Below are positions 718-51,792 of a DNA stretch of 52,102 bases, piece after piece. Each line of letters starts with the position of its first letter. Position 1 is the stretch's first letter. The position numbers and the translations under genes are program-made. The notes under the pieces are model-generated. The model was not told the DNA's origin. It worked only from the letters and a program-made list of their open reading frames with translations, and did not search any database. Origin of the DNA: a candidate division WOR-3 bacterium (GTDB lineage Bacteria; Hydrothermota; Tepidihabitantia; Tepidihabitantales; Tepidihabitantaceae); contig CBFGIT010000007.1 in NCBI GenBank assembly GCA_965648905.1, positions 72,805 through 124,906 of the forward strand. The letters are read 5' to 3'.

Positions 718-1665
718 GTGCTGGGAACTACTCTCGGGATCATCTGCCACGGTGGAGCCGGCGTGATTGACGACAAGCCGGCTGCCGTTGCCGGGCTGAC
801 CGAGGCAATCGAAGAAGGCTACCGTCTGCTCCGTCAGAGTGCCAGTTGCCTTGAAGCGGTCGTGACCGCGGTACGCATCATGGAGGACAACCCGCTGTTC
901 AACTGCGGTACCGGTTCCAGCCTGACCGTCGACGGCGTGGCCGAGATGGATGCCTCGGTCATGACCCAGGACGGCCGCTTCGGCGCGGTCTGTGGTCTGG
1001 TTCGGACAAAGAATCCGATACTGGTCGCGCACAAGGTGATGACCGAAACCGACCACCTGCTGCTCTCAGGCGAAGGTGCGGTCGAGTTTGCCCGCCGGAT
1101 GGGATTCGAGGAGTATGACGTTGCCACCGAGCGGTCGCGCACCCGGCTGCAGAAGGTACTGGCCGAAGGCTCGCCGTACTTCCCCCGGATGCCCAAGGCT
1201 CCGCCACCTGAATCTGACACTCGGGGTCCGGAGTCGGGTGAACACCTTGGCACCGCGGGTGCGGTCGCGATTGACAAACGCGGCAACCTCGCGGTGGCAA
1301 CCTCAAGCGGCGGTATTGCCGGGCGAATGCGGGGTCGGGTTGGAGATTCCGCGATCCTCGGCGCCGGAACCTACGCTGCGCCGTACGGTGCGGTGACCTG
1401 CACCGGTCACGGCGAGGAAATCATGCGTCGGCTTCTGGCCAAGGACATCGTTGACCGGATGCTGACCATGCCTGCCTCGGTTGCGCTGACGCTTGCAATG
1501 TCAGAGGCACGGCGGCGCAAGCTGAGGGTCGGGGCGGTCGGATTCGACGCCCGGGCCGGCATCTGCTACGGCCACACCACACCCGACATGGCCTGGGGCT
1601 ACAAAGTCGCCGAGCGGCTCTTCATGTTCACTGAAGACAAAGGCCCCAAGCCCAAACCGCTGTAG
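718..1665 (+). CDS. iaaA: Isoaspartyl peptidase/L-asparaginase (Ntn hydrolase)
   Basis: Motifs HGGAG, MEDNPLFNCG and EMDASVM, nucleophile site G|TAGAVA, and TSSGG...GRVGDS. AGGAGG lies before the GTG start. Confidence 0.88.
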   Translation: MLGTTLGIICHGGAGVIDDKPAAVAGLTEAIEEGYRLLRQSASCLEAVVTAVRIMEDNPLFNCGTGSSLTVDGVAEMDASVMTQDGRFGAVCGLVRTKNPILVAHKVMTETDHLLLSGEGAVEFARRMGFEEYDVATERSRTRLQKVLAEGSPYFPRMPKAPPPESDTRGPESGEHLGTAGAVAIDKRGNLAVATSSGGIAGRMRGRVGDSAILGAGTYAAPYGAVTCTGHGEEIMRRLLAKDIVDRMLTMPASVALTLAMSEARRRKLRVGAVGFDARAGICYGHTTPDMAWGYKVAERLFMFTEDKGPKPKPL

Positions 1666-1830
1666 CGCCGGCCGCGAACACTGAGGTTGGGGAATGTCTG
1701 GGCCTGCCCGGACAACCGCACCGCCCGGACACGCGCCATGTCCCAGGGACGAGCTGCCGGCGCGACTTGAGCAGGGACGGCTGACGTGCGAACATCATGG
1801 CGGAGCAGGCCAGGAGCGGGACTTTCGGTC

Positions 1831-2142
1831 GTCCCTCTGGCAATGCCGATTGCCATGCATGCTGAAGTGCTGACAGAAATGACGCTGGCTGCGCTCGTGG
1901 TCATGCTGTTTGGAATCAAGCGCTTGGTGCTGGCTGACGCCGCGGGAGTTGTGCCAGTCGCAACTAAGAGTGAGTTGCCACCTGGTTGCACGTCAGCAAT
2001 CCCACCCGACATGTCTTCAGGATCGCCGAGTGAGTCAAAGTCGCCAGTGGCACTGACCGCGCCAACGGAAGTGACAATGGGAGTGCATCGGGGGACGGTA
2101 TACCGGACGTGCATGTGCCGCGTTCCCTGCGCCGGTGCGTGC
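1831..2142 (+). repeat. Degenerate 12-bp-period tract (26 units)
   Basis: Units such as atgccgattgcc/atgcatgctgaa/gtgctgacagaa/atgacgctggct/atgctgtttgga. G is at unit position 10 in 19 of the first 22 units. Confidence 0.75.
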
Positions 2143-2145
2143 ATG

Positions 2146-2170
2146 TAATGCTTTGATTGTCAAGCTGTTA
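2146..2170. promoter_or_regulatory. 25-bp TAA...TTA pseudo-palindromic box
   Basis: taatgctttgattgtcaagctgtta(g) = TAA-N4-TTGA-N3-TCAA-N4-TTA. Related boxes at 2271, 18118, 35456, 46932 and 47038. Confidence 0.6.
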
Positions 2171-2270
2171 GCAGCAGGTCTCTGACCTCGTGCCGTTCTT
2201 GTTACCATTGCCGGCAAAGGAGACGCATGACAATACCAACTATCACGGACAAAACACGCGGTAGGCGAGC

Positions 2271-2295
2271 TAAGTCAATCTCTTTCAGCAGGATA
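2271..2295. promoter_or_regulatory. Second, weaker 25-bp box
   Basis: taagtcaatctctttcagcaggata, 125 bp after the first box. The right end is imperfect. Confidence 0.35.
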
Positions 2296-2386
2296 CGTTG
2301 TCTGGTGGTGATCTGACTCCCCGGCTTCCCAAGGAGCAGTTGGATGTGCGATAGCAGGCTTGGCTGAATCGGCGTCTGTCAGGTTT

Positions 2387-2615
2387 CTGCTTTGGGTGAT
2401 GTTGTCGGTTTCAGCTTCGGCGCGGGCTTGAGGGTTGCTTCCGGCGCTGCTGTGCGCGATGCGCCGGGCACATGCTCGAGCAGGAGACTGAGCCGTCGGT
2501 TGAGAAGTTGTCTCGTGAGTTGACCATGCAGTTGAGCCGGCGTTTGTATCGGAGTTCTGTGGCTTCCTCGGCTTTCGGCCCGACGGTCTTGTCACGACAG
2601 GACTTTGATGATGGA
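2387..2615 (+). repeat. Degenerate 12-bp-period tract
   Basis: Units include ctgctttgggtg/atgttgtcggtt, later ttgcttccggcg/ctgctgtgcgcg/atgcgccgggca. After a 1-nt slip come ttgtctcgtgag/ttgaccatgcag/ttgagccggcgt/ttgtatcggagt. Confidence 0.6.
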
Positions 2616-2695
2616 GGAATGACTAGCAGCGGAGGCAAGACAAAGGCAGAATACAGGGCTCAGAGCAAAGACGCGAAGGGTGGGGCTGACGAGCG

Positions 2696-2723
2696 TTGAC
2701 ATCGGTGATACGGACGGTAGACT
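2696..2723 (+). promoter_or_regulatory. Sigma70-type promoter
   Basis: TTGACA-16bp-TAGACT, 11 nt before the GTG at 2735. Confidence 0.65.
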
Positions 2724-2734
2724 AACCATCCTCC

Positions 2735-5620
2735 GTGCCTAGTCTCGTTCTCCGCATCCTTCCTCGTGTCAGGCCTGCGGTGTTGCTGGTGCTGGCTGTC
2801 GCAACTTGCGCGCTGGGCCAGTATTCCTACTTCGGCAAGAGCAAGGTCCAAACCCGGGACTATGCCTTCCAGAACCTGGAGACCGAGCACTTCCGCATCC
2901 TGTTCTATCCGGGGGGCGAGGCTCTGGCCGAGTTCGCGGCCCGGTCAGCCGAGGAGTACTACCGTCTCACCTCGACTGACCTCAACCTTGAGCTCGAAGA
3001 CCGGGTCCCGCTGATTCTCTATCTCTCGCCCAACCAGTTCAGCGAGACCAATGTCACCCTGGAGATAATCGAGGAAGGGGTCGGCGGCTTTGCCGAGCTG
3101 CTCAAGAACCGCATCGTCATACCGTTCAACGGTTCGTACAGCGACCTGCACCACGTCATCGGCCACGAGCTGACCCATATCTTCGAGTTTCGGATGTTCT
3201 ACCGCTCGCGGCTGGCCGCCCTGCTCGGCGCAGTTGATGAGTTTCAGATTCCGCTCTGGGTATTGGAAGGCTTTGCCGAGTTCCAGTCCGGCTGGGCCAA
3301 TGTCAGTTCCGAGACGTTCATGCGCGACCTCGTGCTCAACAACCGCGTCGTACCGCTGCACCAGTTGAGTGATAACATGGGCTACCTTGTCTATCGTCAG
3401 GGCGAGTCCTTTTTCCACTATGTCGAGGAGAAGTACGGCCGCAAGAAGGTCTATGAGTTCCTGCACGTGCTTGCCCGACGCCGGAACCTGACCGCGACCT
3501 TTGATGCTGTGTTTGGTCTGTCGGTCGAGCGGTTCTCCCGCGAGTGGGAGGAGTGGCTGCGTATCCGCTACTGGCCTCAGGTGACCCGGTTGCGCAACTT
3601 CGACCAGCTTGCCGAGCGCCTTACCAACCATCAGGAAGACCGCTCGGTCTACAACACCGCACCGGCAATCTCGCCTAGCGGCACCAAGGTCGCAATGATT
3701 TCCGACCGGCACGAATACGCCGACGTCTACGTCATATCCGCGTTTGACGGCCGGGTGCTCAAGCGGCTGGTACGGGGTGAACGTTCGGGTGGCTTTGAGG
3801 CGATGCACCTGTTGCGCCCCGGACTGGCCTGGTCACCGGACGAGCACACGATTGCGGTCGTGACCAGAACCGCGGGCCGGGACAACCTGGCCTTGATTGA
3901 CTACTCATCCGGCCGGGTGGTGCGGCGCATCTTCGGTAACCTCGACGCGGTGTACAGCCCCTGCTTCTCGCCTGACGGACGACGTGTTGCTTTTGTCGGA
4001 CTGAAGAACGGGTTCAGTGACATCTACGAGGTTGATGCATCGGGTGGGGAGCCGCGCCGTGTCACCTACGATATGTACGATGACCGGGACCCGACCTATT
4101 CGCCGAGCGGCGAAACGATCGCCTTCGTCTCTGACCGACCAGACGCGGGCAGTCAGTGGTCCCCAGGCTCCTACGCAGTCTGGCTCCGCTCCCAGAGCGG
4201 CGCTGAGCGTCTCACCGACCGCAGCGAGCAGATGTCCCATCCGGTCTTCACCAAGTCGGGTGAGTATCTCATCTACGCGGCGTCCGACTCGGCCGCCAAC
4301 GTCTTTGTCTTCTCGCGGGCAGAGCGAAGAGTCGTCCGCCGCACCGACCTGCTCGGTGACGCGTCCCATCTCTCGCTTTCTGCCGATGACCGCAAACTCG
4401 CCTTTGCTTACTACTCCAACGTCGGCTGGGACATTGCCGTGATGCTCGACCCGCTCGAGAAGATTCCGGTGGACTCAGGCCCGGGTCGGCCGGCACGGCT
4501 CGATACGTTGTCGTTCGAGAAACAGGGGCTTGACTTTGGTCGGGTCAGGCCGGTCGGCTTCAATCTGTCGCTTGACTACGCAGTGGGCGCAGCCTCATAC
4601 GGCATCGGCCCGTCCGGCGGCTTCTCCGGTACGCTCAATCTTGCCTTCAGCGACATGCTGGGCAACCACCGATTCGGACTCTACACAGACCTGTACGGCG
4701 ACATCCTCAACTCCAACCTGATGCTTGAGTACTGGCTTCTGCCCTATCGGGTTGACTATGGCTTTGCTCTGTTTCAGTTCTTCGACGTACCACTCTACTA
4801 CCCGTACCGGTATCGGGTCGACCAAACCAATCGGGGTGGACAGGCACTTGCCGGGTATCCGTTCAATCGGTTCGTCCGGGCCGAACTTGGCCTCACGCTT
4901 TACAACAGCAGGCTGGATGTCTACCGTTGGGGGGTCTCATCGGAGTATGCCGGATGGTACTGGGAACGGGCTTACAACGAACGCGTGATGTACGCAAGCC
5001 CGGCTCTGGTGCTCGACAACACATACTGGGATGGCTATGGCCCGGCGCGCGGTACTCGAACCCGACTTGGGGTCGACGTATCATTCTTGTCTGACCGGCA
5101 CTTCCAGGATGTGTTTGCTGACTGGCGTAACTACCAGCGTATCGGCAGACGAACGGTATTCGCGTCGCGCCTGTTCGGTGTACGCGGCTTTGGCCGAGAT
5201 GCCGACCAGTACTACATCGGTGGCGTGCGATTTCTTGAGTACGCGCCTGGCCAGATGGTCATCCGGGGGTACCAGCCGGCCGAGTTCGCCGACGATTCCT
5301 TGGTCGGCCCGGGTGCGGCCCTTTTCGGCTTCGAACTGCGCTACCCTTTCATTGACCGGCTCAAGTTCGCCTTTCCCCTGCCGCTTGACATCCAGGGCAT
5401 CAGAGGCGTGGCGTTCCTTGACGGCGGCCTGATTCAGCGGCCGGGTCTGAGGATTTGGGATGGTTCGCAAAATGAACTGAAGGACCTGAAACTGGGCGTC
5501 GGGTTCGGCATCAGAACTCAGATTGCCTTCATACCAGTCAAGCTCGACCTGGCCAAACCCCTCTCTGCCACTGATGACAAGAGCTGGAAGTTCATTTTCG
5601 GGCTCGGTCTGGACTTCTAG
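2735..5620 (+). CDS. Outer-membrane protein: peptidase MA-like domain + TolB/PD40 beta-propeller + Omp85 (BamA/TamA-like) barrel
   Basis: Signal peptide. HELTH...PLWVLEGFAE metallopeptidase motif. Repeated P.(W/F)SPDG..IAF.S PD40 units. C-terminal barrel with IRGY motif and terminal Phe. Confidence 0.85.
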   Translation: MPSLVLRILPRVRPAVLLVLAVATCALGQYSYFGKSKVQTRDYAFQNLETEHFRILFYPGGEALAEFAARSAEEYYRLTSTDLNLELEDRVPLILYLSPNQFSETNVTLEIIEEGVGGFAELLKNRIVIPFNGSYSDLHHVIGHELTHIFEFRMFYRSRLAALLGAVDEFQIPLWVLEGFAEFQSGWANVSSETFMRDLVLNNRVVPLHQLSDNMGYLVYRQGESFFHYVEEKYGRKKVYEFLHVLARRRNLTATFDAVFGLSVERFSREWEEWLRIRYWPQVTRLRNFDQLAERLTNHQEDRSVYNTAPAISPSGTKVAMISDRHEYADVYVISAFDGRVLKRLVRGERSGGFEAMHLLRPGLAWSPDEHTIAVVTRTAGRDNLALIDYSSGRVVRRIFGNLDAVYSPCFSPDGRRVAFVGLKNGFSDIYEVDASGGEPRRVTYDMYDDRDPTYSPSGETIAFVSDRPDAGSQWSPGSYAVWLRSQSGAERLTDRSEQMSHPVFTKSGEYLIYAASDSAANVFVFSRAERRVVRRTDLLGDASHLSLSADDRKLAFAYYSNVGWDIAVMLDPLEKIPVDSGPGRPARLDTLSFEKQGLDFGRVRPVGFNLSLDYAVGAASYGIGPSGGFSGTLNLAFSDMLGNHRFGLYTDLYGDILNSNLMLEYWLLPYRVDYGFALFQFFDVPLYYPYRYRVDQTNRGGQALAGYPFNRFVRAELGLTLYNSRLDVYRWGVSSEYAGWYWERAYNERVMYASPALVLDNTYWDGYGPARGTRTRLGVDVSFLSDRHFQDVFADWRNYQRIGRRTVFASRLFGVRGFGRDADQYYIGGVRFLEYAPGQMVIRGYQPAEFADDSLVGPGAALFGFELRYPFIDRLKFAFPLPLDIQGIRGVAFLDGGLIQRPGLRIWDGSQNELKDLKLGVGFGIRTQIAFIPVKLDLAKPLSATDDKSWKFIFGLGLDF

Positions 5621-6809
5621 CATCCTGCGGAACGCGGCCTGGCTGCTCACCCTTCTTGCTTGTTCCTGCACGCCGTTTGTCCGTCGGGGAAAGCCGCTAT
5701 CGCCCGATGAGGCGGCACGCGGCTTCGCCGAGCGACTCAAGGCGGCGCAGTCGTTCGCCTTCCGGCTGAGCTACCATACCGACATTCCCTTCCCGCTCGG
5801 CGCGGAGTTCTCCGGCCTGCGGCAAAGCAGTGACCGCGAAGAGTGGAACGGAACCTGGACACGCGGCAGCGAGAGGTCCAAGGTCGCGCTGCGGGCCGCG
5901 GGCCCGGTTCAGTATGAATATGAGAACGGAAAGTGGCACCGAACCCAGCGCGGGGTTGAGACGAGAGTCCTCGACCAGCTTCAGCCCGTCGTCAAGGGCA
6001 GTCGATTGACCTTCATGAAGACCGAGGCGGGTCGGCACTTCTACCAGTTCACTCCTGAAGTGCCGATTCTGGACCCGACCCAGACGCGCAAGCTGTCCGG
6101 CACAATCGAGATTGACATTCACAGCGGACTGCCGCGGAACGTCTACTGCTCAGACTCAACCCGAACCGCAGAGTGGCGTCTCTCGTTCAGTCGTTTCAAC
6201 CGGGCCGGTCGGGTGCGCGTGCCGTTCGTCCCGGTTCAGACCATCACCGTCGCGCCGTCTCGCCGGCTCAGCCGAGCCGAGTTCAGGCGTGCGGAACAGG
6301 TGATTGAGGCGCGCCTGCGTACCACCGACCCGGAAGCGGAAATCGAGCCAGCACGGGGCGGCCTGAGGTTGAGCATGTCCCGGCGGCTGTCTGAACGCGA
6401 AGTCGAACTGCTGCTGGGCCAGGGCCGGGTCGAGGTTCGGGCTGCCCGGGTCACCACCGAGGCAGACACCGCGGGCTCGGTCAAGGTCGGGGACGATGCT
6501 GCGACGCGGGTTGCACTGGGCCGGATGATTGCCGGTCCCGGCTCCATGACTGCCGAACTCGTGGCCGACGTTCCTGTCCGACCCGGTCTGGCTGTCTTCC
6601 CGCAGCGACCAGGGATCATCTCAGGCAGCACTGACCGCGATACGGTCCTGGTATTTGTGCTCGACGGTGCGGTACTTTCTGCGGCCCGGGGACAGGCTGA
6701 CGGCCGAATCGTATTCTACGACCTGGGTAGCGAAGACCTGATTGTCGTCCTGGCCGGGGTTGTAAACAGCGGAGTGCTGCCTGCCCGATTCCGGGTCGCG
6801 GGTCGGTGA
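5574..6809 (+). CDS. Putative lipoprotein: LolA/LppX-like N-domain + SecD P1-like domain (start uncertain)
   Basis: Lipobox-like LLACSC. Segments AEQVIEARL...LLGQGRVEVR and LVFVLDGAVLSA...LAGVVNSGVLP resemble the SecD periplasmic P1 domain. No transmembrane bundle. Confidence 0.6.
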   Translation: MTRAGSSFSGSVWTSSILRNAAWLLTLLACSCTPFVRRGKPLSPDEAARGFAERLKAAQSFAFRLSYHTDIPFPLGAEFSGLRQSSDREEWNGTWTRGSERSKVALRAAGPVQYEYENGKWHRTQRGVETRVLDQLQPVVKGSRLTFMKTEAGRHFYQFTPEVPILDPTQTRKLSGTIEIDIHSGLPRNVYCSDSTRTAEWRLSFSRFNRAGRVRVPFVPVQTITVAPSRRLSRAEFRRAEQVIEARLRTTDPEAEIEPARGGLRLSMSRRLSEREVELLLGQGRVEVRAARVTTEADTAGSVKVGDDAATRVALGRMIAGPGSMTAELVADVPVRPGLAVFPQRPGIISGSTDRDTVLVFVLDGAVLSAARGQADGRIVFYDLGSEDLIVVLAGVVNSGVLPARFRVAGR

Positions 6810-16868: not shown

Positions 16869-17921
16869 TCAGAAGTCGGTCCAGCCCAGGTTGAAGTTGG
16901 TCACCACCGGCCCGTGGAACACCCCGCGCTCAGGGATACGGCAGGTTCCACCCCTGCCATCCTCAAAGTAGAAGTAGTAGTCGTGCTGTCGGCCCTCGAA
17001 CGTCCGGACCTTGCACGAATACAGGCCGTCGTACGACTTACCTGCAACTCGCTCCATCTGCCGCGGGATGCCGTCAACGTAGACCATGGCCAGAGCAGCC
17101 GGGTCTGAGTCAACGTCTCGGTAGTTGACCAGGAATTTGAAGGTCGTGGATGAACTGCCGGCCGCAGGCGTGACCTTTGGGTCAAGTAGAACTGGCGCGA
17201 TGTTGGGTCGTCCGGTCACCTCAGGCCCACGCAGAAACCCGTGCTTCGGGTGCATCACGCAGTCACCCCGCTCGTCAATCGCTCCAAAGTAGTATGCGTG
17301 GGGGCCGGCCGGGAGCCGTACCTGGTAGAGGTACGTGCCGTCATAGGGGCTACCCTTGTGCAGCTTCATGTCGTGCCAGATGCCATCCACGGCCACGCAG
17401 ATGCGACGTGGTTGTTCAATATCGTCTCTGTCTTTGTAGTGGACAGTGAACGTGTAAACCGCGTAGTCGTCACCTTCCTCGAAGTAGACACCGCCATCGG
17501 TCAAGACCGGCAGGCGGTTGTAGCGCTCGCGCTGCCCGACAAACGGCCCGGGTTTGGCGCCGTAGCGCGGCCACCGTTCGCTCGCGCCGCGTGCGTCCTC
17601 AGCAGAGAAGTAGTAGGTGTGCTCGCCCGGCGGCAGGGTCAACCGAGCACGGTAGGTGCCCCGTGCAGCGCGTCCGGAGACGAGACGCATCGGGTAGGCC
17701 TGACCGCTGATATAGACTTCAACCCGAGCCGGTGCGTCACCGTCCGGGTCTTCGTAGTCCACCATGGCCACGTAGACCGTACGGGCCGTGCCTTCAGAAG
17801 GGATGATGCTGGCGCGACAGAGGCAGGGCTTGTGATTCTCCGCTGCCGCGGCTGGAGATACGGACAGTAGGACAAGCAGAATGACCGAAGCTGCGGCAAA
17901 AGCGTCATGCTGTTTGCGCAT
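16869..17921 (-). CDS. Secreted protein with three ~100-aa Ig-like repeats
   Basis: Start chosen from the AAAGGAGG Shine-Dalgarno. Signal peptide. Three repeats of V.Y.D.D.D/..V.V.G....M....G....G.Y....H.YYF...D.RG...GP.V. Confidence 0.75.
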   Translation of the reverse strand: MRKQHDAFAAASVILLVLLSVSPAAAAENHKPCLCRASIIPSEGTARTVYVAMVDYEDPDGDAPARVEVYISGQAYPMRLVSGRAARGTYRARLTLPPGEHTYYFSAEDARGASERWPRYGAKPGPFVGQRERYNRLPVLTDGGVYFEEGDDYAVYTFTVHYKDRDDIEQPRRICVAVDGIWHDMKLHKGSPYDGTYLYQVRLPAGPHAYYFGAIDERGDCVMHPKHGFLRGPEVTGRPNIAPVLLDPKVTPAAGSSSTTFKFLVNYRDVDSDPAALAMVYVDGIPRQMERVAGKSYDGLYSCKVRTFEGRQHDYYFYFEDGRGGTCRIPERGVFHGPVVTNFNLGWTDF

Positions 17922-18117
17922 TCTTCCTCCTTTTTCTTTCGTCAGCGCGTTCTGGTCATCGGCACCTGAGTTGATGGGTGTTAGAGCTGGGCTACTCATC
18001 CCGCACGATACCCTGCAGACGGACTGCCGCGACGTGCCGACAGCCGATCATGTTGTTGGACAGGATAGTGAAGTCGGAACGTCCCGGCCACGAGCGCCGG
18101 CCAGGATGGGCAGCAGG

Positions 18118-18142
18118 TAAGCCCAAACACTATATTATGTTA
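18118..18142. promoter_or_regulatory. 25-bp TAA...TTA box
   Basis: (g)taagcccaaacactatattatgtta(g), preceded by a weakly 12-periodic tract at about 17960-18117. Confidence 0.55.
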
Positions 18143-18199: not shown

Positions 18200-18784
18200 C
18201 TAGAAAACAATAACAACACCTGAGGGCAGAACCCGAGCCGTAACAAGATACAGGCCGCGTCGGCGCTTGGCGTAGACTCGGATGCGGTAGTTGTAGCCGG
18301 TCTCCGGTTCAAACCCGACAATCGTCTGGGATGAACGCCCGGCAACCCGACCGTCTCCCGGCCAGATGAAGACAACCACCTCGAGCACGGCCATCCGGTC
18401 GAATGCGAACGAGTCGCGGTCATCACTGGACAGACCGCGAAACACCTCGCCGGCGATCTCAACGTGAGAGTGGAAGTTGCCCAGGAAACGCAGGCGCATG
18501 CTCTGTGCCAGTTGACGCCGACGGGCGATGATGCGCCGAATCGTCGGCCAGTCCTTGAAAACGACTCCGGTGCGGGTCTTGGTTCCGCCTCGGTAGTAAC
18601 AGACGCGCCGGACAACGATGCGCCGCTCGTCGGTCAGCGTACCGTAGACGAACCCGAACGTCTCACGCTTGAGCGGGGTCTCGTACCCTCGGCGAGTCAG
18701 GCGACACAACTCGCGTACCGCATCCTCTTCAAACAGCACCGGCGGGCGGAAATCAGGAAGCCGCGGGAATCGGAGCGGCAACAT
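18200..18784 (-). CDS. JAB/MPN (JAMM) domain protein
   Basis: RETFGFVYG supplies the catalytic Glu and GNFHSH-x11-SSDD the metal-binding motif. TGn-TAGAAT lies 6 nt before the ATG. Confidence 0.75.
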   Translation of the reverse strand: MLPLRFPRLPDFRPPVLFEEDAVRELCRLTRRGYETPLKRETFGFVYGTLTDERRIVVRRVCYYRGGTKTRTGVVFKDWPTIRRIIARRRQLAQSMRLRFLGNFHSHVEIAGEVFRGLSSDDRDSFAFDRMAVLEVVVFIWPGDGRVAGRSSQTIVGFEPETGYNYRIRVYAKRRRGLYLVTARVLPSGVVIVF

Positions 18785-35100: not shown

Positions 35101-35175
35101 CACGCAGCATTCCGGCAGGGCACCAACAGCCTGCCGCTCGCAATCCGGCAACCGGCCCATATTCCGGCTTCGGAG

Positions 35176-35451
35176 CTGCTCCTGGGCTTGCTCTTGGTTC
35201 TGGCTCCAGGCCCGGCTGGCCATGCGGACTTAGACTCGCTCGCCAGCGCGCAATTTCGTCTGCTCAGATGCACGCTGACTATGCTGCTGCCTTGTGTGTC
35301 CGACATCCCGCCTTCGGGCCTGCCGGTCGGAATGCTGGCTCAAGTGGGAAACAACCTGCCATTCTGCCTGCTGGTCAGTCTGGCAGGGGGAGCGACTCCC
35401 GGAGTCGCTCCGGATAGTGCGACCGAGGCCGGACTCGGAATGCGACTTCTG
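35176..35451 (+). repeat. Degenerate 12-bp-period tract (23 units)
   Basis: The first 19 consecutive 12-mers all begin NYG (ctgctcctgggc/ttgctcttggtt/ctggctccaggc...). Contains the perfect inverted repeat ggagcgactcc-c-ggagtcgctcc (35389-35411). Confidence 0.78.
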
Positions 35452-35455
35452 GCCG

Positions 35456-35479
35456 TAAGCCTCAGCATTGCGCAAGTTA
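35456..35479. promoter_or_regulatory. 24-bp variant of the TAA...TTA box
   Basis: (g)taagcctcagcattgcgcaagtta(g), directly after the periodic tract. Confidence 0.5.
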
Positions 35480-35562: not shown

Positions 35563-35590
35563 TTGACTTGTGTGCATGTCTGTCTATCAT
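35563..35590 (+). promoter_or_regulatory. Sigma70-type promoter
   Basis: TTGACT-16bp-TATCAT, 9 nt before ATG 35600. Confidence 0.7.
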
Positions 35591-35599
35591 CAGCGTCAG

Positions 35600-36349
35600 A
35601 TGGCTGTGCAACTGCCGCGCAATCTGAATGCCCTTGTCGAATCTGCAGTCCGCCACTTCTGGAACACACGCTCGACTCAGGCCCGCAGGCAGAAGCAGGG
35701 CGGCAGCGCTGACCAGGGAGCGCGCAGTGCGGTCACCGGCGGCGCGCAGATGGACGGATTCATCGACCTGTTTGCCCGGCTTGCGCTGAGGTCAGGGGCG
35801 CGGCCTCACGACGTGCTGCAAGGCAAGAACGCCGAGCTACCCGGCTGTCTTGCCCTCAGGAGACGTTGGGACCTACTGGTGATGCACGACAGCCAGATTC
35901 TCTGCGCCTTCAAGTTTGCCTGTACGACACTTCCCGCCAGCAATGACGCGGTAGCGTCTCTGGCCGATAACGCAGTAGGCTCAGCCTTTGACTTCTGGCG
36001 CGCATATGGTCGCGGCGCGCTGAACCACGATATCAAGCCTTGGCTCGGGTACCTGCTGCTGGTTGTAGGACTAAGTGACGCATCGAACCGCGCCCCAAGA
36101 CGCAGTAGACAGCCTAGTACAAAACTTGATGCCGCTGAGTACGGGGCTCTCTGCCGCAACCTAGTGCGCAATCGGTTCTACGACGGAGCAGCGCTCCTAC
36201 TCGTGGGCCCAGGAGGCAACTACAGCCAACCTGCCCAAGACCTTGGGCTCGAATGCCTTTGTCGATTCCTAGTCTGCTACACAGCAGTCTGCGCGGCCGA
36301 GCCGACTTCGGCTGAAACCGGTCAAAGCAGACGACAGACCGTTCCTTGA
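35600..36349 (+). CDS. PaeR7I/XhoI-family restriction-endonuclease homologue, catalytic motif degenerate
   Basis: AVRHFWNTR...DQGARSAVTGGAQMDGF...LPG...WDLLV...PWLGYL match the family as I recall it. The expected ExK motif reads FKFAC. Confidence 0.75.
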   Translation: MAVQLPRNLNALVESAVRHFWNTRSTQARRQKQGGSADQGARSAVTGGAQMDGFIDLFARLALRSGARPHDVLQGKNAELPGCLALRRRWDLLVMHDSQILCAFKFACTTLPASNDAVASLADNAVGSAFDFWRAYGRGALNHDIKPWLGYLLLVVGLSDASNRAPRRSRQPSTKLDAAEYGALCRNLVRNRFYDGAALLLVGPGGNYSQPAQDLGLECLCRFLVCYTAVCAAEPTSAETGQSRRQTVP

Positions 36350-36364
36350 AAGGAGTCAAAGTCG

Positions 36365-37273
36365 ATGGCAGTTCCTGATTACCAGTCTCTCATGCTACCA
36401 CTCCTCCGACTGGCCGCCGACGGCAAAGACCACGCCCTACGCGATGCCATCGAGAAGCTGGCCGAGCAGTTTCGGCTCTCTCCAGAGGACAGGGAGGAAA
36501 TGCTACCCAGCGGCACGCAAAGGAAGTTCGACAACCGCGTCGGCTGGGCGCGAACCTACATGCAGAAGGCAGGGCTGCTCGACAGGCCCAGGCGGGGCTA
36601 TCTCCGTATCACCGAACGCGGACGCGACGTACTGCTGACCGAACCGGAACGCATCGATGTCGACTTCCTGAAGCAGTACCCTGAATTTCTGGCGTTTCAG
36701 ACCGCATCCCGACCGGAACCGCTGGAGACTGCTGCTTCGACGAAGCAGACGGACCAGACGCCCGAAGAGCTCTTGGAATCCAGCTACCAGGAACTTCGTG
36801 ACAACTTGGCCCAGAAGCTGCTTGAGAAGACCAAGAACTGCTCACCTGAGTTCTTTGAGCAGCTTGTCGTGGACCTGCTTGTCGCGATGGGCTATGGCGG
36901 TTCGCGTAAGGACGCAGGCAAGTCCGTCGGCCGCACCGGCGATGGCGGCGTTGACGGGGTCATCAACGAGGACCGTCTGGGCCTCGACGTGATCTACGTT
37001 CAGGCCAAGCGATGGAAAGGCACCGTTGGTCGACCGGTCGTTCAGACATTCGCCGGCAGCCTCGAAGGCTACCGCGCTCGTAAGGGCGTGCTCATCACAA
37101 CCTCCAGATTCTCTGATGACGCACTGGAGTACGTACGCCAGATTGAGAGGAAGATAGTGTTGATAGACGGCCAGCGTCTGACCCAGCTCATGATCGACCA
37201 CGGCGTCGGCGTCACTGAGGACAGAACGTTCGCTGTCAAGCGAATGGATTCAGACTACTTCGAGATGGAGTGA
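36365..37273 (+). CDS. mrr: Mrr restriction system protein (type IV)
   Basis: MAVPDYQSLMLPLL, NRVGWARTY, FFEQLVVDLL.AMGYG, DGGVDG, QAKRW, KGVLITTS and LIDG. Confidence 0.96.
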   Translation: MAVPDYQSLMLPLLRLAADGKDHALRDAIEKLAEQFRLSPEDREEMLPSGTQRKFDNRVGWARTYMQKAGLLDRPRRGYLRITERGRDVLLTEPERIDVDFLKQYPEFLAFQTASRPEPLETAASTKQTDQTPEELLESSYQELRDNLAQKLLEKTKNCSPEFFEQLVVDLLVAMGYGGSRKDAGKSVGRTGDGGVDGVINEDRLGLDVIYVQAKRWKGTVGRPVVQTFAGSLEGYRARKGVLITTSRFSDDALEYVRQIERKIVLIDGQRLTQLMIDHGVGVTEDRTFAVKRMDSDYFEME

Positions 37274-37485: not shown

Positions 37486-38415
37486 CTACCGGTAGCGCGC
37501 GACAACTGCCTGAAGGTGTTCGGCCCCAGGCATGGCGTCCTGCCAGACATGGTAGGACGACTTCTCCCCCATATCTCTGTTGGCAACGACGCAGACGCGA
37601 CCCTCGCGGTCAAGCGCGTGAATGACCAAGGCACCAAGATGCCCGCCCTTGAGCGCGTCCAGGTCGCGCAGCGCCTCAGTGCAGGCTTCGTCAATCTGCA
37701 TCCCGGCCTTCAGATAGAGCACAACCGAACGTGCAGTCGCGGCCCTGATTGACATCTCACCGGTGTGGGTACAGGCGCACGCGCCATAGCGGCTGTCCGC
37801 ATACAGGCCCGCGCCGACAATCGGCGAGTCACCGACCCGGCCCGGATAGCCGTTGGCCCAGCCCGAAGTGCTCGTACCGGCAGCAAGACCGCCGTTCTTG
37901 GCACGGACAAGGAAGACCACCGTTCCGCCCTTGCCGAACTCGTGCGCCGACCGCCAGACGTGGTCTGCCAGTGACACGCCAGGTCGGCGCAGGCGTTCCG
38001 GGTCGATGTCGTGCTTCCGCAGCCATGCCTCGTGACTCTGCCGCGCCTCATCGGTCAGCATCTCTGCCTCTTCTGCTCCGACCTCGGCCGCAAACCGTGC
38101 CGCGCCATCGCCTGCGAGCATCACGTGTGGCAGCCGTTCCAGCACCTTTCGTGCGACCGAAACAGCGTGCAGATAGCCTCTGAGCCCGGCAATTGCGCCG
38201 ACCATGAGCGTATCTCCGTCCATGACCGCGGCATCGCAGACCACGTCACCGAGCAGATTCGGTCTACCGCCCCGGCCGACTGAGTCAACTCTTGGCTCAG
38301 CCTCGACCGGTCTGATCCCCGCCTCGACGACATCGAGGGCATCCCGACCTTCAAGCAGTGCCGCACGCGCCGCCTCCAGCCCGGGCCAACCTTCGCAGTT
38401 GGTAACGAAAGTCAT
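37486..38415 (-). CDS. Ntn hydrolase: glycosylasparaginase/isoaspartyl peptidase family
   Basis: SVGRGGRPN, CDAAVMDG, G|TVVF nucleophile and TSTSG...PGRVGDSPIVGAG. Start set 10 nt after TTGACC-16-TATCTT. Confidence 0.88.
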   Translation of the reverse strand: MTFVTNCEGWPGLEAARAALLEGRDALDVVEAGIRPVEAEPRVDSVGRGGRPNLLGDVVCDAAVMDGDTLMVGAIAGLRGYLHAVSVARKVLERLPHVMLAGDGAARFAAEVGAEEAEMLTDEARQSHEAWLRKHDIDPERLRRPGVSLADHVWRSAHEFGKGGTVVFLVRAKNGGLAAGTSTSGWANGYPGRVGDSPIVGAGLYADSRYGACACTHTGEMSIRAATARSVVLYLKAGMQIDEACTEALRDLDALKGGHLGALVIHALDREGRVCVVANRDMGEKSSYHVWQDAMPGAEHLQAVVARYR

Positions 38416-38508
38416 TGCAGGATAGAAGATAGCGGGCCGAGCGTCGCGGTCAACACACAACTACCTGTCGTGCACGTCGTGGCTGACCCAGGTCAGCCCG
38501 CGGGGAGC

Positions 38509-46478: not shown

Positions 46479-46931
46479 GCACCGCGTCGAACCAACCCAG
46501 CCTGCCGTGGACCGGCAGGGCAACTGTCTCCAGCCACCCTGCCGACCCACGGGTTATTCGCTCACAACCCACCTAGCATGACGGCAGTCCAGTTCCCTGC
46601 CCAGGCCCGCAAAGTCGCTCCGCGTTCAAATAGCGGCTCTGCCTGACCTCAGCGGCCGTCCGGCTCGGCTCGGTCCCGGCGCAGCAGGAGGCTGGTCCGC
46701 GCGAGTTCCGAACCACTGGTCAGTTCCGGTGAGTCCGGCTCGGTCAGCGGCTCAGGTCTTGCACCGAACAGATGCGCCAGCAGCGGATACCTGCCACAGC
46801 ACCTGGTCCCAGAACCTGAAACGACAGCCGGTATGCCCTCGGCCACTGGGTTCTGCTTGCTATCCGTCTGACCACCATCACTGCCCATGGTGCTAATCCA
46901 AGCAACAACCGTGCCATCTGACTGCTGACCA

Positions 46932-47062
46932 TAAGTCACGTACTATTAGTACGTTAGACATCAAGACCGACCTGACCCATCCAGACCAACCGTGCCTGGC
47001 ACACACGGCAGAGTGTGTCTTGCCTGGCTTGGTCATGCAAGTCGTTATCCAACTATATGTTA
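46932..47062. promoter_or_regulatory. Pair of 25-bp boxes (46932-46956 and 47038-47062)
   Basis: taagtcacgtactattagtacgtta(g) and caagtcgttatccaactatatgtta(g), 106 bp apart, preceded by a weak 12-periodic tract at about 46790-46930. Confidence 0.58.
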
Positions 47063-51025: not shown

Positions 51026-51132
51026 GGCAGTGTCAAGAATTGTGTGTAAATTGCTTGGCCCTCTTCGCAGGCTTGCCCCATAGCGGGCGGTCCTCCCATT
51101 GCTTGTTGGTCTTCATGAACAGCGCGTAGACC
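51026..51132 (-). mobile_element. IS256-family right-end remnant
   Basis: ggcagtgtcaagaattgtgtgtaaa resembles IS256-family terminal repeats. The minus strand encodes VYALFMKTNKQW...FTHNS*, an IS256-like transposase tail. Confidence 0.6.
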
Positions 51133-51792
51133 TGATCTGCCCCCGGTTTGATGGGCACTTTCTTAAGCGGCACGCCCCGGTCCGAGTGATGAATCGCACC
51201 CGGCTCCGGCCGCCGCCCAGCCGCCATCGCCAACGCATCCAGCACCAGTTGCTCTACCAACCGGCCGGATAGTGCCCAGCCGACAATCCGGTGCGAGCAC
51301 AGGTCCAACTCGGTCGCCAGATACAGCCAGCCCTCCGCGGTCGGGATGTCGGTGATGTCAGCCACCAGAACCTGGCCCGGCCTGGCCGCCCGGAACTCCC
51401 GCCCGAGCCGATTCGGCGCCACCGGCAAGGAGCGCCCGGAGTCGGTCGTCGGCCGGTACTGCCGATGCTGCACCGCCACAATGTCGTGCCGCCTCATCAG
51501 ACGCGCCACCCGATTGAGACTGCAGCGGATACCACGTCTTTGCAGCTCGGCGTGTATCCGCCGACTGCCGTAGACACGGAGGTTCTGTTCGTAGACCTCC
51601 CGAATGAACATCAGCAGGTAGCGGTTGCGACGGTCGCGCCGACTCTCGGCCCGGTCTCGGGAAGCGTAGAAGCTGCTGCGCGGCAGCTCGGCTAACTGAC
51701 ACTTGCGTCTGACTGACAGCCGGCCCGGGTGCTCGGCTATGACCCGGGCCTTCAATGCGCTTCCCGCGCCAGCCAGACCGCGGCTCTTTTAG
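51133..51792 (-). mobile_element. IS3-family remnant (internally deleted, left end lost)
   Basis: orfA tail KRAAVWLAREAH* overlaps the orfB start. orfB has RSSFY, YGSRRI, RVARLMR, ADIT.I.T.EGWLYL and HHSDRG, then breaks off. Terminal TGATCTGCCCCCGGTTTGATGGGCAC at 51133. Confidence 0.85.

What the first reader, a model, noticed from the sequence alone, without database searches (positions are those of the whole stretch)
1831..2170. Non-coding element family: 12-bp-period tract capped by a 25-bp box (clearest copy)
Seen: 26 in-register 12-mers of loose consensus NYGCYNNNNGNN, with G at position 10 in 19 of the first 22, run into the box taatgctttgattgtcaagctgtta. The same layout appears at 35176-35479 and more weakly at about 17960-18142 and 46790-46956. 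It also resumes at 2387-2615. The copies share phase and consensus but no long identity, so they are not recent duplications. All read on the + strand whatever the direction of the neighbouring genes. Inference: a phased array for a polymerising DNA-binding protein nucleated at the box (chromosome organisation, possibly replichore-polarised), a ncRNA family, or decayed 4-aa-repeat genes. I know of no named element with this layout.
Basis: partly seen in the sequence, partly recalled or inferred. Interest (0 to 1): 0.85.

Follow-up and report, generated by a model that had tools for sequence, protein, structure and literature searches.

The report
Evenly spaced 12-base chromosome landing tracks
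This stretch is one of about 110 non-coding DNA tracks that keep a strict 12-base rhythm and avoid lying close to one another along the chromosome of an uncultured bacterium, and they are likely landing sites for bacterial relatives of the DNA-wrapping coat protein of archaeal filamentous viruses, which would be an undescribed way of organising a chromosome.

Summary
Real and non-coding. Tracts at 1807-2106, 2316-2579 and 35140-35415 keep a 12-base phase; the two 'weaker' copies have only a box. The genome holds about 110 such loci in several families (median 23 units, then a G-run and often a palindromic box). This scan already noted the family, and its link to Adnaviria-capsid-like genes, on other DNA; I re-tested the link and it held: capsid-fold genes in 43 of 43 genomes of the order and 0 of 158 outside; period-12 peaks 41 in 1.37 Mb versus 1 in 0.96 Mb. 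Not seen in the earlier notes shown to me: (1) the two tracts face each other box-to-box inside a ~1-kb insert missing from all 21 relatives that hold both flanking genes together; (2) loci avoid each other: 0 gaps under 5 kb versus 9 expected, across unrelated families, with a small repeat in a second family. Not replichore-polarised, not a structured RNA, not a decayed gene. Best reading: sequence-programmed tracks for capsid-fold dimers (12 bp each), likely organising the chromosome; binding is inferred, not shown, and how copies spread is unknown.

The parts
1666..2690 (.). About 1-kb insert holding two tracts box-to-box; ends approximate
   Evidence: Gap between the asparaginase and PD40/Omp85 genes is 1129 bases here and 38-175 in all 21 relative loci that hold both genes (of 29 relative loci; 8 held one gene only)
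1807..2106 (+). Tract A, 25 phased 12-base units, family A (20 members in the genome)
2090..2100 (+). G-run cap closing tract A, conserved in family A and seen in families B and C
   Evidence: alignments
2146..2170 (.). Palindromic 25-base box A; each half fits the IHF consensus (consensus recalled)
   Evidence: 25.1 bits
2226..2247 (.). Decayed copy of a palindrome that is perfect in front of an XRE-HTH gene on contig C1 and recurs at four other tract leaders; likely an old operator
   Evidence: 12 mismatches in 32 bases; same column block as the intact copy on C49
2271..2295 (.). Box B, belonging to tract B
   Evidence: 13.5 bits
2316..2579 (-). Tract B with its G-run cap, 22 units, family B (27 members), pointing towards box B
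2696..2723 (+). Promoter-like -35/-10 pair of the downstream gene; a similar pair lies in the empty site of the congener, so it marks the right limit of the insert
   Evidence: read; function untested
718..1665 (+). Left flank: asparaginase-2 family gene
   Evidence: PF01112
2735..5620 (+). Right flank: peptidase MA / PD40 / Omp85 gene
35140..35415 (+). Tract C, 23 units, family C (7 close members), with G-run cap near 35386
35456..35479 (.). 24-base variant of the box closing tract C
   Evidence: read
18118..18142 (.). Box without a detectable tract
   Evidence: 10.9 bits; tract not significant
46932..46956 (.). Box without a detectable tract (a second box at 47038-47062)
   Evidence: 16.8 and 17.8 bits; tract borderline at best, 43 of 1000 shuffles

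Best explanation
This is one copy of a dispersed non-coding element of about 23 units in strict 12-base register, found at about 110 mutually avoiding places in the chromosome, and it likely serves as a landing track on which predicted dimers of the bacterium's Adnaviria-capsid-fold proteins line up one per unit, probably to organise the chromosome. Shown: the phase, the non-coding nature, the polarity (tract, G-run, box), the spacing, the capsid fold of the predicted models, and the joint occurrence of genes and tracts. Inferred: (1) a pyrimidine-purine step once every 12 bases makes the tract easy to wrap in register with dimers that each cover 12 bp, as in SIRV2 and AFV1; 23 units would make 1.6 to 2.5 superhelical turns at the viral 14.7 or 9.3 dimers per turn; (2) loading would start at the polar end, through an XRE-HTH/capsid-fold fusion bound to its palindrome, or through an IHF-type bend at the box; (3) tracts in front of the capsid-fold and HTH-fusion genes would give feedback control; (4) new copies appear by copying or by tandem expansion, and copies within about 5-8 kb of an existing one are blocked or lost. 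The window's locus is a lineage-specific insertion of two such modules facing each other.
For: Period 12 stands out genome-wide: 120 peaks against 0-2 for periods 9, 10, 11, 13 and 6-41 for 14, 15, 18, 21; 110 of 120 lie outside called genes. Net tract length between anchor columns differs only by multiples of 12 in 52 of 53 copies while identity has fallen to 48-61%. The period is kept while the letters change: an AT-rich relative has a TAAT core, this genome a YG core, both with a pyrimidine-purine step. Polarity towards the box in 60 of 65. Capsid-fold genes: the top 7 structural matches of the model are all Adnaviria capsid proteins in two searches; 12 bp per repeat in AFV1 and SIRV2 (PMC5517147, passages). 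A tract lies within 1 kb upstream at 5 of 10 capsid-like loci by the peak rule, 7 of 10 with family profiles and a bridging contig, and at 4 of 5 HTH-fusion genes, against 122 of 2311 genes, or 94 of 690 with free upstream room. In relatives 5 of 27 upstream versus 0 of 28 downstream. Genes in 43 of 43 genomes of the order, 0 of 158 others; period-12 peaks 41 in 1,367,110 bases (12 of 15 genomes) versus 1 in 958,176 (1 of 13). Spacing: CV 0.50 versus 0.82, gaps under 5 kb 0 versus 8.8, under 8 kb 3 versus 15.0, each reached by 0 of 5000 class-matched draws; holds for interior loci and between different families and with a second detector; second family 0 of 7 gaps under 8 kb, 4.2 expected, p=0.0024.
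Against: No binding is shown. Genes and tracts share one phylogenetic boundary, a single contrast, so any other order-specific factor would fit as well. The viral proteins coat whole genomes, so a sequence preference is an added assumption. Structural scores are moderate for a helical bundle (no Foldseek match at E<=0.001; Z 8.5-15). 22 of 27 best capsid-like loci in relatives show no tract within 900 bases. Long gaps are not depleted (7 over 45 kb versus 7.7), so the pattern is exclusion, not a lattice that must be filled, which fits a mobile element with immunity equally well. Positions are not conserved: at 17 syntenic junctions with the congener none shared a tract and each had one private. 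One of three other sampled genomes shows a 4.6-kb gap and the other two give no gaps. SMC and ParB are present, so no standard organiser is missing. Pairwise alignments gave mixed small gaps, so single indel events are not resolved, only net lengths.
Confidence: 0.6

Rival explanations
1. The tracts are the cis parts of a selfish or gene-transfer system: the capsid-fold proteins coat or package DNA starting at these sites, the modules spread as non-autonomous elements, and the even spacing is target immunity rather than a host function.
For: Empty site in relatives; young families at 88-97% identity and ragged shared flanks of up to 1.7 kb; modules occur alone and in pairs, 7 A/B pairs among 106 loci; the exclusion zone (none under 4 kb, depleted to about 16 kb) resembles Mu cis-immunity, strongest near 5 kb and fading to 25 kb (PMC7350765, passages); capsid ancestry of the fold.
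Against: No transposase, integrase or reverse transcriptase family recurs next to tracts in the flank clustering; the only tyrosine recombinases are XerC- and XerD-like; exclusion holds between unrelated families; the genes occur in every genome of the order searched, unlike a patchy parasite.
Confidence: 0.2
2. The tracts are extended regulatory regions: a repressor or sigma-linked protein spreads over them to control the neighbouring gene.
For: Tracts lie upstream of capsid-like, ECF sigma and HTH-fusion genes; an operator-like palindrome sits at some leaders.
Against: 20 of 42 long gaps between convergent genes hold a tract, against 89 of 297 overall; no enrichment beside the commonest secreted-protein class (33 of 89 versus 69 of 208); it does not explain mutual avoidance.
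Confidence: 0.1
3. The tracts are neutral, ageing minisatellites copied around the genome; period 12 is a by-product of slippage.
For: Near-perfect 12-base tandem arrays occur in relatives; the lineage also grows heptamer arrays.
Against: Narrow length (median 23 units), phase kept at 48-61% identity, the same period with unrelated letters across families, polarity, and spacing that heptamer, period-14, period-21 and box-only controls lack.
Confidence: 0.05
4. The tracts are transcribed as a structured RNA family, or are decayed genes for 4-residue-repeat proteins.
For: Open frames of 120 and 181 codons cross tract A; some family B members fold better than shuffles (mean z -1.7 and -1.1, one at -7.6).
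Against: Stops in every frame in most members (11-16 of 17, 21-24 of 27, 5-7 of 7) and dN/dS 0.66-1.06 with no frame standing out; no Pfam hit; no Rfam hit; consensus fold only -7.4 kcal/mol over 384 columns, covariation term -0.2; family A mean z -0.3 and +0.6 on 10 members.
Confidence: 0.05

Closest known systems
Nucleocapsids of Adnaviria (SIRV2 3j9x, SSRV1 6wq0, AFV1 3fbz/3fbl/5w7g, SFV1 6d5f; Pfam PF12193)
   Same: Same fold in the predicted models of the associated proteins; 12 bp per protein pair equals the tract period (PMC5517147, passages).
   Different: Here the genes are chromosomal, multi-copy and bacterial, and the DNA carries short sequence-programmed tracks; a review states adnavirians do not appear connected to viruses of bacteria (PMC10848233, passages).
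Nucleosome-positioning sequences (recalled)
   Same: A periodic flexible dinucleotide step over one to two superhelical turns of DNA.
   Different: Period 12 rather than about 10; non-histone fold; polar, capped modules.
HIP1 of cyanobacteria (PMC5861425, abstract and outline only)
   Same: Non-coding motif under selection with 10-90 kb regularity, proposed to act in nucleoid structure.
   Different: HIP1 is an 8-base palindrome at gene-level density; this is a 280-base phased tract at about one per 28 kb with a candidate reader.
Transposition target immunity of Mu, Tn7, Tn3 (PMC7350765, passages)
   Same: Absence of copies within about 5 kb of one another, fading over 5-25 kb.
   Different: No transposase or AAA+ partner found beside the tracts; exclusion spans unrelated families.
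REP/BIME mosaics with IHF sites, and MITEs (recalled)
   Same: Intergenic, multi-copy, modular, lineage-specific insertion; box halves fit the IHF consensus.
   Different: Units are not palindromic hairpins; a strict 12-base phase is what is conserved.

Membership tests
Adnaviria nucleocapsid | SIRV2-type capsid fold | tested here: met
   Associated protein P0001: top 7 rows are Adnaviria capsid proteins in Foldseek (TM 0.73 to 3j9x; E 0.013-0.52) and VIA (Z 15.0, rmsd 9.0 over 117; Z 13.4, rmsd 2.0 over 79; next unrelated 7.9); sequence matches 3j9x E=0.014. Predicted model, moderate scores.
Adnaviria nucleocapsid | Dimer binds 12 bp of A-form DNA | not testable with these tools
   Only the numerical match of tract period and viral footprint.
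Adnaviria nucleocapsid | Encoded by a linear archaeal virus genome | tested here: not met
   Scattered chromosomal genes in 43 of 43 genomes of a bacterial order, beside ECF sigma and HPr-like genes; one homologue is named as WOR-3.
MITE / non-autonomous insertion sequence | Multi-copy with empty orthologous sites | tested here: met
MITE / non-autonomous insertion sequence | Sharp ends with terminal inverted repeats and target duplication | tested here: inconclusive
   Shared extents are ragged; the congener is only 80-84% identical so the junction does not align; no dedicated terminal-repeat search was run.
MITE / non-autonomous insertion sequence | Cognate transposase | tested here: inconclusive
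   None recurs among frames within about 1 kb of 120 peaks (clusters read by eye); the genome was not searched for all transposase families.
Protein-coding repeat gene | One conserved open frame under purifying selection | tested here: not met
Structured ncRNA | Conserved, covarying secondary structure | tested here: not met
   (consensus fold tested for family A, + strand)
Structured ncRNA | Discrete transcript | not testable with these tools
   No expression data in hand.
Replichore-polarised motifs (KOPS, Chi) | Strand bias along replichores | tested here: not met
   19/16/16/16 against local GC skew; both orientations on 9 of 10 contigs with three or more boxed tracts. Draft genome, origin not located.
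IHF binding site (box) | Match to consensus and an IHF-type protein in the genome | tested here: inconclusive
   Each half of the learnt matrix fits YAA-N4-TTGA (consensus recalled, seen only as a hit term in two listings); one HU-like and one IHF-beta-like gene, both under the curated cut-offs.
CRISPR array | Near-identical repeats with unique spacers | tested here: not met
   Unit identity about 35-40%, no spacers; no Rfam hit.

The most novel reading that the evidence does not exclude
A whole bacterial order has its own chromatin built from the capsid fold of archaeal filamentous viruses: dimers wrap about 280-base tracks written in a 12-base positioning code, HTH fusions seed them, and the tracks exclude one another so that anchors fall roughly every 20 kb. 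The fold would then have a cellular home, bearing on where Adnaviria capsids came from.
Probability: 0.35. Interest if true: 0.95.

Novelty: categorically new. Interest (0 to 1): 0.82.

Why it matters
If right, it is a DNA-packaging system outside histones and known nucleoid proteins, with a readable positioning code and a spacing rule. It gives a cellular relative of a capsid fold regarded as special to archaeal viruses, and makes testable with one small protein and one 300-base oligo whether A-form wrapping is used inside cells. Even under the selfish-element reading, mutual exclusion between unrelated repeat families would need a new mechanism.

Tried and rejected
Rfam and tRNA scans of the window: nothing. 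Pfam on the frames over the tracts: nothing. Sequencing runs: none was listed, no RNA holder listed; no evidence either way. Homodimer prediction for the capsid-fold protein: no verdict obtained, so dimer formation rests on fold likeness alone. No genome-wide count of phased tracts was obtained for relatives; the comparison rests on sampled stretches of 28-288 kb per genome. ESM Atlas: weak, unrelated look-alikes. Viral contigs searched with one protein: no relative confirmed, close relatives only. The two strong family A hits in genome G017 are not independent: its contigs are 100% identical to this genome's C52 and C29 ends, likely mis-binned; I used them only to bridge a contig gap. A matrix scan at thresholds 1.0-1.6 was inside the noise (160-390 false positives) and discarded; rerun at 2.1-2.6. 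The idea that tract-less boxes are decayed elements filling gaps failed: 40 such boxes do not avoid tracts, and 36 of 40 show no hidden phase. Link to secreted-protein genes: none. A self-alignment was useless. Literature: ten full-text searches listed no paper on these tracts or on bacterial SIRV2-fold proteins; only listings were seen for most, none of the 12 listed held the phrase '12-bp periodicity', and subscription journals are missing. Two primary structure papers were not held. No supplements were read.

Full report
Observation. The phased tract is real. For 1831-2142, 2387-2614 and 35176-35475, column identity at period 12 is 0.33-0.34 against 0.28 in triplet shuffles, reached by at most 1 of 5000 shuffles per frame; G at position 10 in 19 of the first 22 units is exact. 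The two weaker places fail the same test, a box-oriented matrix test (702 and 43 of 1000) and family profiles; they carry only a box. Best limits are 1807-2106, 2316-2579 and 35140-35415.

A genome-wide family. A motif-free scan of the 3.01-Mb genome gives 120 peaks at period 12 against 2, 0, 0, 0 at 9, 10, 11, 13 and 14, 6, 14, 41 at 14, 15, 18, 21. 110 of 120 lie outside genes called by a self-trained finder, and 89 of 297 intergenic gaps of 300 bases or more hold one, including 20 of 42 between convergent genes. They fall into several families; the window's three tracts belong to families of 20, 27 and 7 members. Median length is 23 units over 61 boxed tracts. Layout is polar: tract, G-run, then often a palindromic box; the tract reads the same way towards the box in 60 of 65 cases; a strong box is near 61 of 120 peaks against 27 of 209 control gaps, with the caveat that the matrix was learnt near the peaks.

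This locus. Tract A points right into box A; tract B points left into box B; the pair recurs (7 A/B pairs among 106 loci; alignment). Between the boxes is a decayed copy of a palindrome that is perfect in front of an XRE-HTH gene and recurs at four other leaders, with none expected from shuffles. The whole block is an insert: 1129 bases separate the flanking genes here, 38-175 in all 21 relatives that hold both genes on one locus, of 29 relative loci returned. Exact ends cannot be read. At 17 syntenic junctions with the congener no tract was shared, so positions turn over.

What it is not. Not coding: most members have stops in every frame and dN/dS is 0.66-1.06 in all six (near-identical members above 90% were dropped, 17 of 20 kept in A). 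Not a structured RNA. Not replichore-polarised. What is kept is phase: net lengths differ by multiples of 12 in 52 of 53 copies at 48-61% median identity; pairwise alignments could not resolve single events.

Candidate reader. Earlier notes of this scan pointed to Adnaviria-capsid-like genes; I tested this. The genome has 16 matching segments, at 10 loci plus one HTH fusion and none on the window's contig. The model of one (pLDDT 88.5) ranks seven Adnaviria capsid proteins first in two searches, with moderate scores. AFV1 and SIRV2 bind 12 bp per repeat, at 9.3 and 14.7 dimers per turn (PMC5517147, passages). Five XRE-HTH genes exist; the model of one has an HTH N-terminus and a C-terminal domain whose best matches are the same capsid proteins (Z 10-11.3; profile match only E=1e-4, probability 55%; a second member gave no match). 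Tracts lie upstream of 5 of 10 capsid-like loci by the peak rule (7 of 10 with other evidence) and 4 of 5 HTH genes, against 5% of all genes and 14% of genes with free upstream room; in relatives 5 of 27 upstream versus 0 of 28 downstream. The genes occur in 43 of 43 genomes of the order and 0 of 158 others of the phylum. In sampled DNA, period-12 peaks number 41 in 1.37 Mb from 15 gene-bearing genomes (12 positive; GC 31-64%) and 1 in 0.96 Mb from 13 gene-free genomes (GC 38-53%) (peaks not filtered for coding). An AT-rich relative keeps the period with a different core. The box lies near 14 of 45 tracts in relatives, 3-11% expected, but is as common in gene-free genomes, so it is probably a general nucleoid-protein site. 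All this is one phylogenetic contrast.

Spacing, the new result. Merging peaks within 1.5 kb gives 106 loci and 65 gaps, median about 22 kb. Against draws from gene junctions of the same orientation class, CV is 0.50 versus 0.82, gaps under 5 kb 0 versus 8.8, under 8 kb 3 versus 15.0, each reached by 0 of 5000 draws; gaps over 45 kb are not depleted (7 versus 7.7); pair counts are 0.0 and 0.26 of expectation below 4 and 8 kb and 1.4-1.75 at 16-24 kb. It holds without contig-end loci (1 of 53 versus 12.0) and between different families (1 of 56 gaps under 8 kb), across thresholds and with a second detector. Boxes alone, period-21, period-14 and heptamer peaks, and the longest tract-free gaps show no such pattern. 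A genome of another family gives 0 of 7 gaps under 8 kb, 4.2 expected, p=0.0024; three others are uninformative or show one 4.6-kb gap. Contigs under 5 kb are absent from the assembly, which could hide a few close pairs of near-identical copies.

Mechanism. Most likely the tracts are positioned loading tracks: one capsid-fold dimer per 12-base unit, favoured by a flexible pyrimidine-purine step per unit (0.59 at one phase), seeded at the polar end. Binding, dimer formation, A-form wrapping and seeding are inferred. The exclusion could be selection against crowding of wrapped anchors (host chromosome role, preferred because the genes are in every genome of the order searched and exclusion spans families) or immunity of a mobile system (scale like Mu, PMC7350765, passages). 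No mobilising enzyme recurs nearby; how copies spread is open. SMC and ParB are present.

Novelty. Ten literature searches listed nothing on this element or on bacterial proteins of this fold (see Tried and rejected); a review treats adnavirians as unconnected to bacterial viruses (PMC10848233, passages). It works like an adnaviral nucleocapsid segment but is not a member of Adnaviria. The scan has reported the tract-plus-capsid-fold link many times on other DNA; those notes are not independent evidence.

Noticed in passing
window 35570-37273: XhoI-type and Mrr restriction endonuclease genes directly follow tract C and its box; flanks are not syntenic in relatives.
   Followed up: partly
L002:186-1932, L003:13-1812, L001:1381-3222: Capsid-like genes sit in clusters with ECF sigma factors and an HPr-like gene.
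   Followed up: partly
P0011, P0021, P0025, P0035, P0041, P0044: Homologues of 236-258 residues carry two capsid-like domains in one chain, like pre-fused dimers.
   Followed up: no
L093:1-553 and L085:1550-1932 (G017): 100% identical to contig ends of this genome although assigned to another genus; likely mis-binned contigs.
   Followed up: partly
L086, L087, L095, L081, L119: Near-perfect 12-base tandem arrays in relatives, two of them directly upstream of a capsid-like gene; possible young stage of the tracts.
   Followed up: partly
window 46932-47062: Two strong boxes 106 bases apart in a long divergent gap before hypD, with no clear tract.
   Followed up: partly
window 5523-6809, 16869-17999, 18200-18784: Three long frames with no Pfam or NCBIfam match.
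   Followed up: no
window 51033-51755: Insertion-sequence transposase (HTH_21 plus rve) at the contig end; no link to the tracts seen.
   Followed up: no
G005, G147, G010 sampled stretches: Heptamer arrays are common both inside and outside the order and randomly spaced in this genome.
   Followed up: partly
window 718-1665 and 37486-38460: Two asparaginase-2 paralogues in one window.
   Followed up: no
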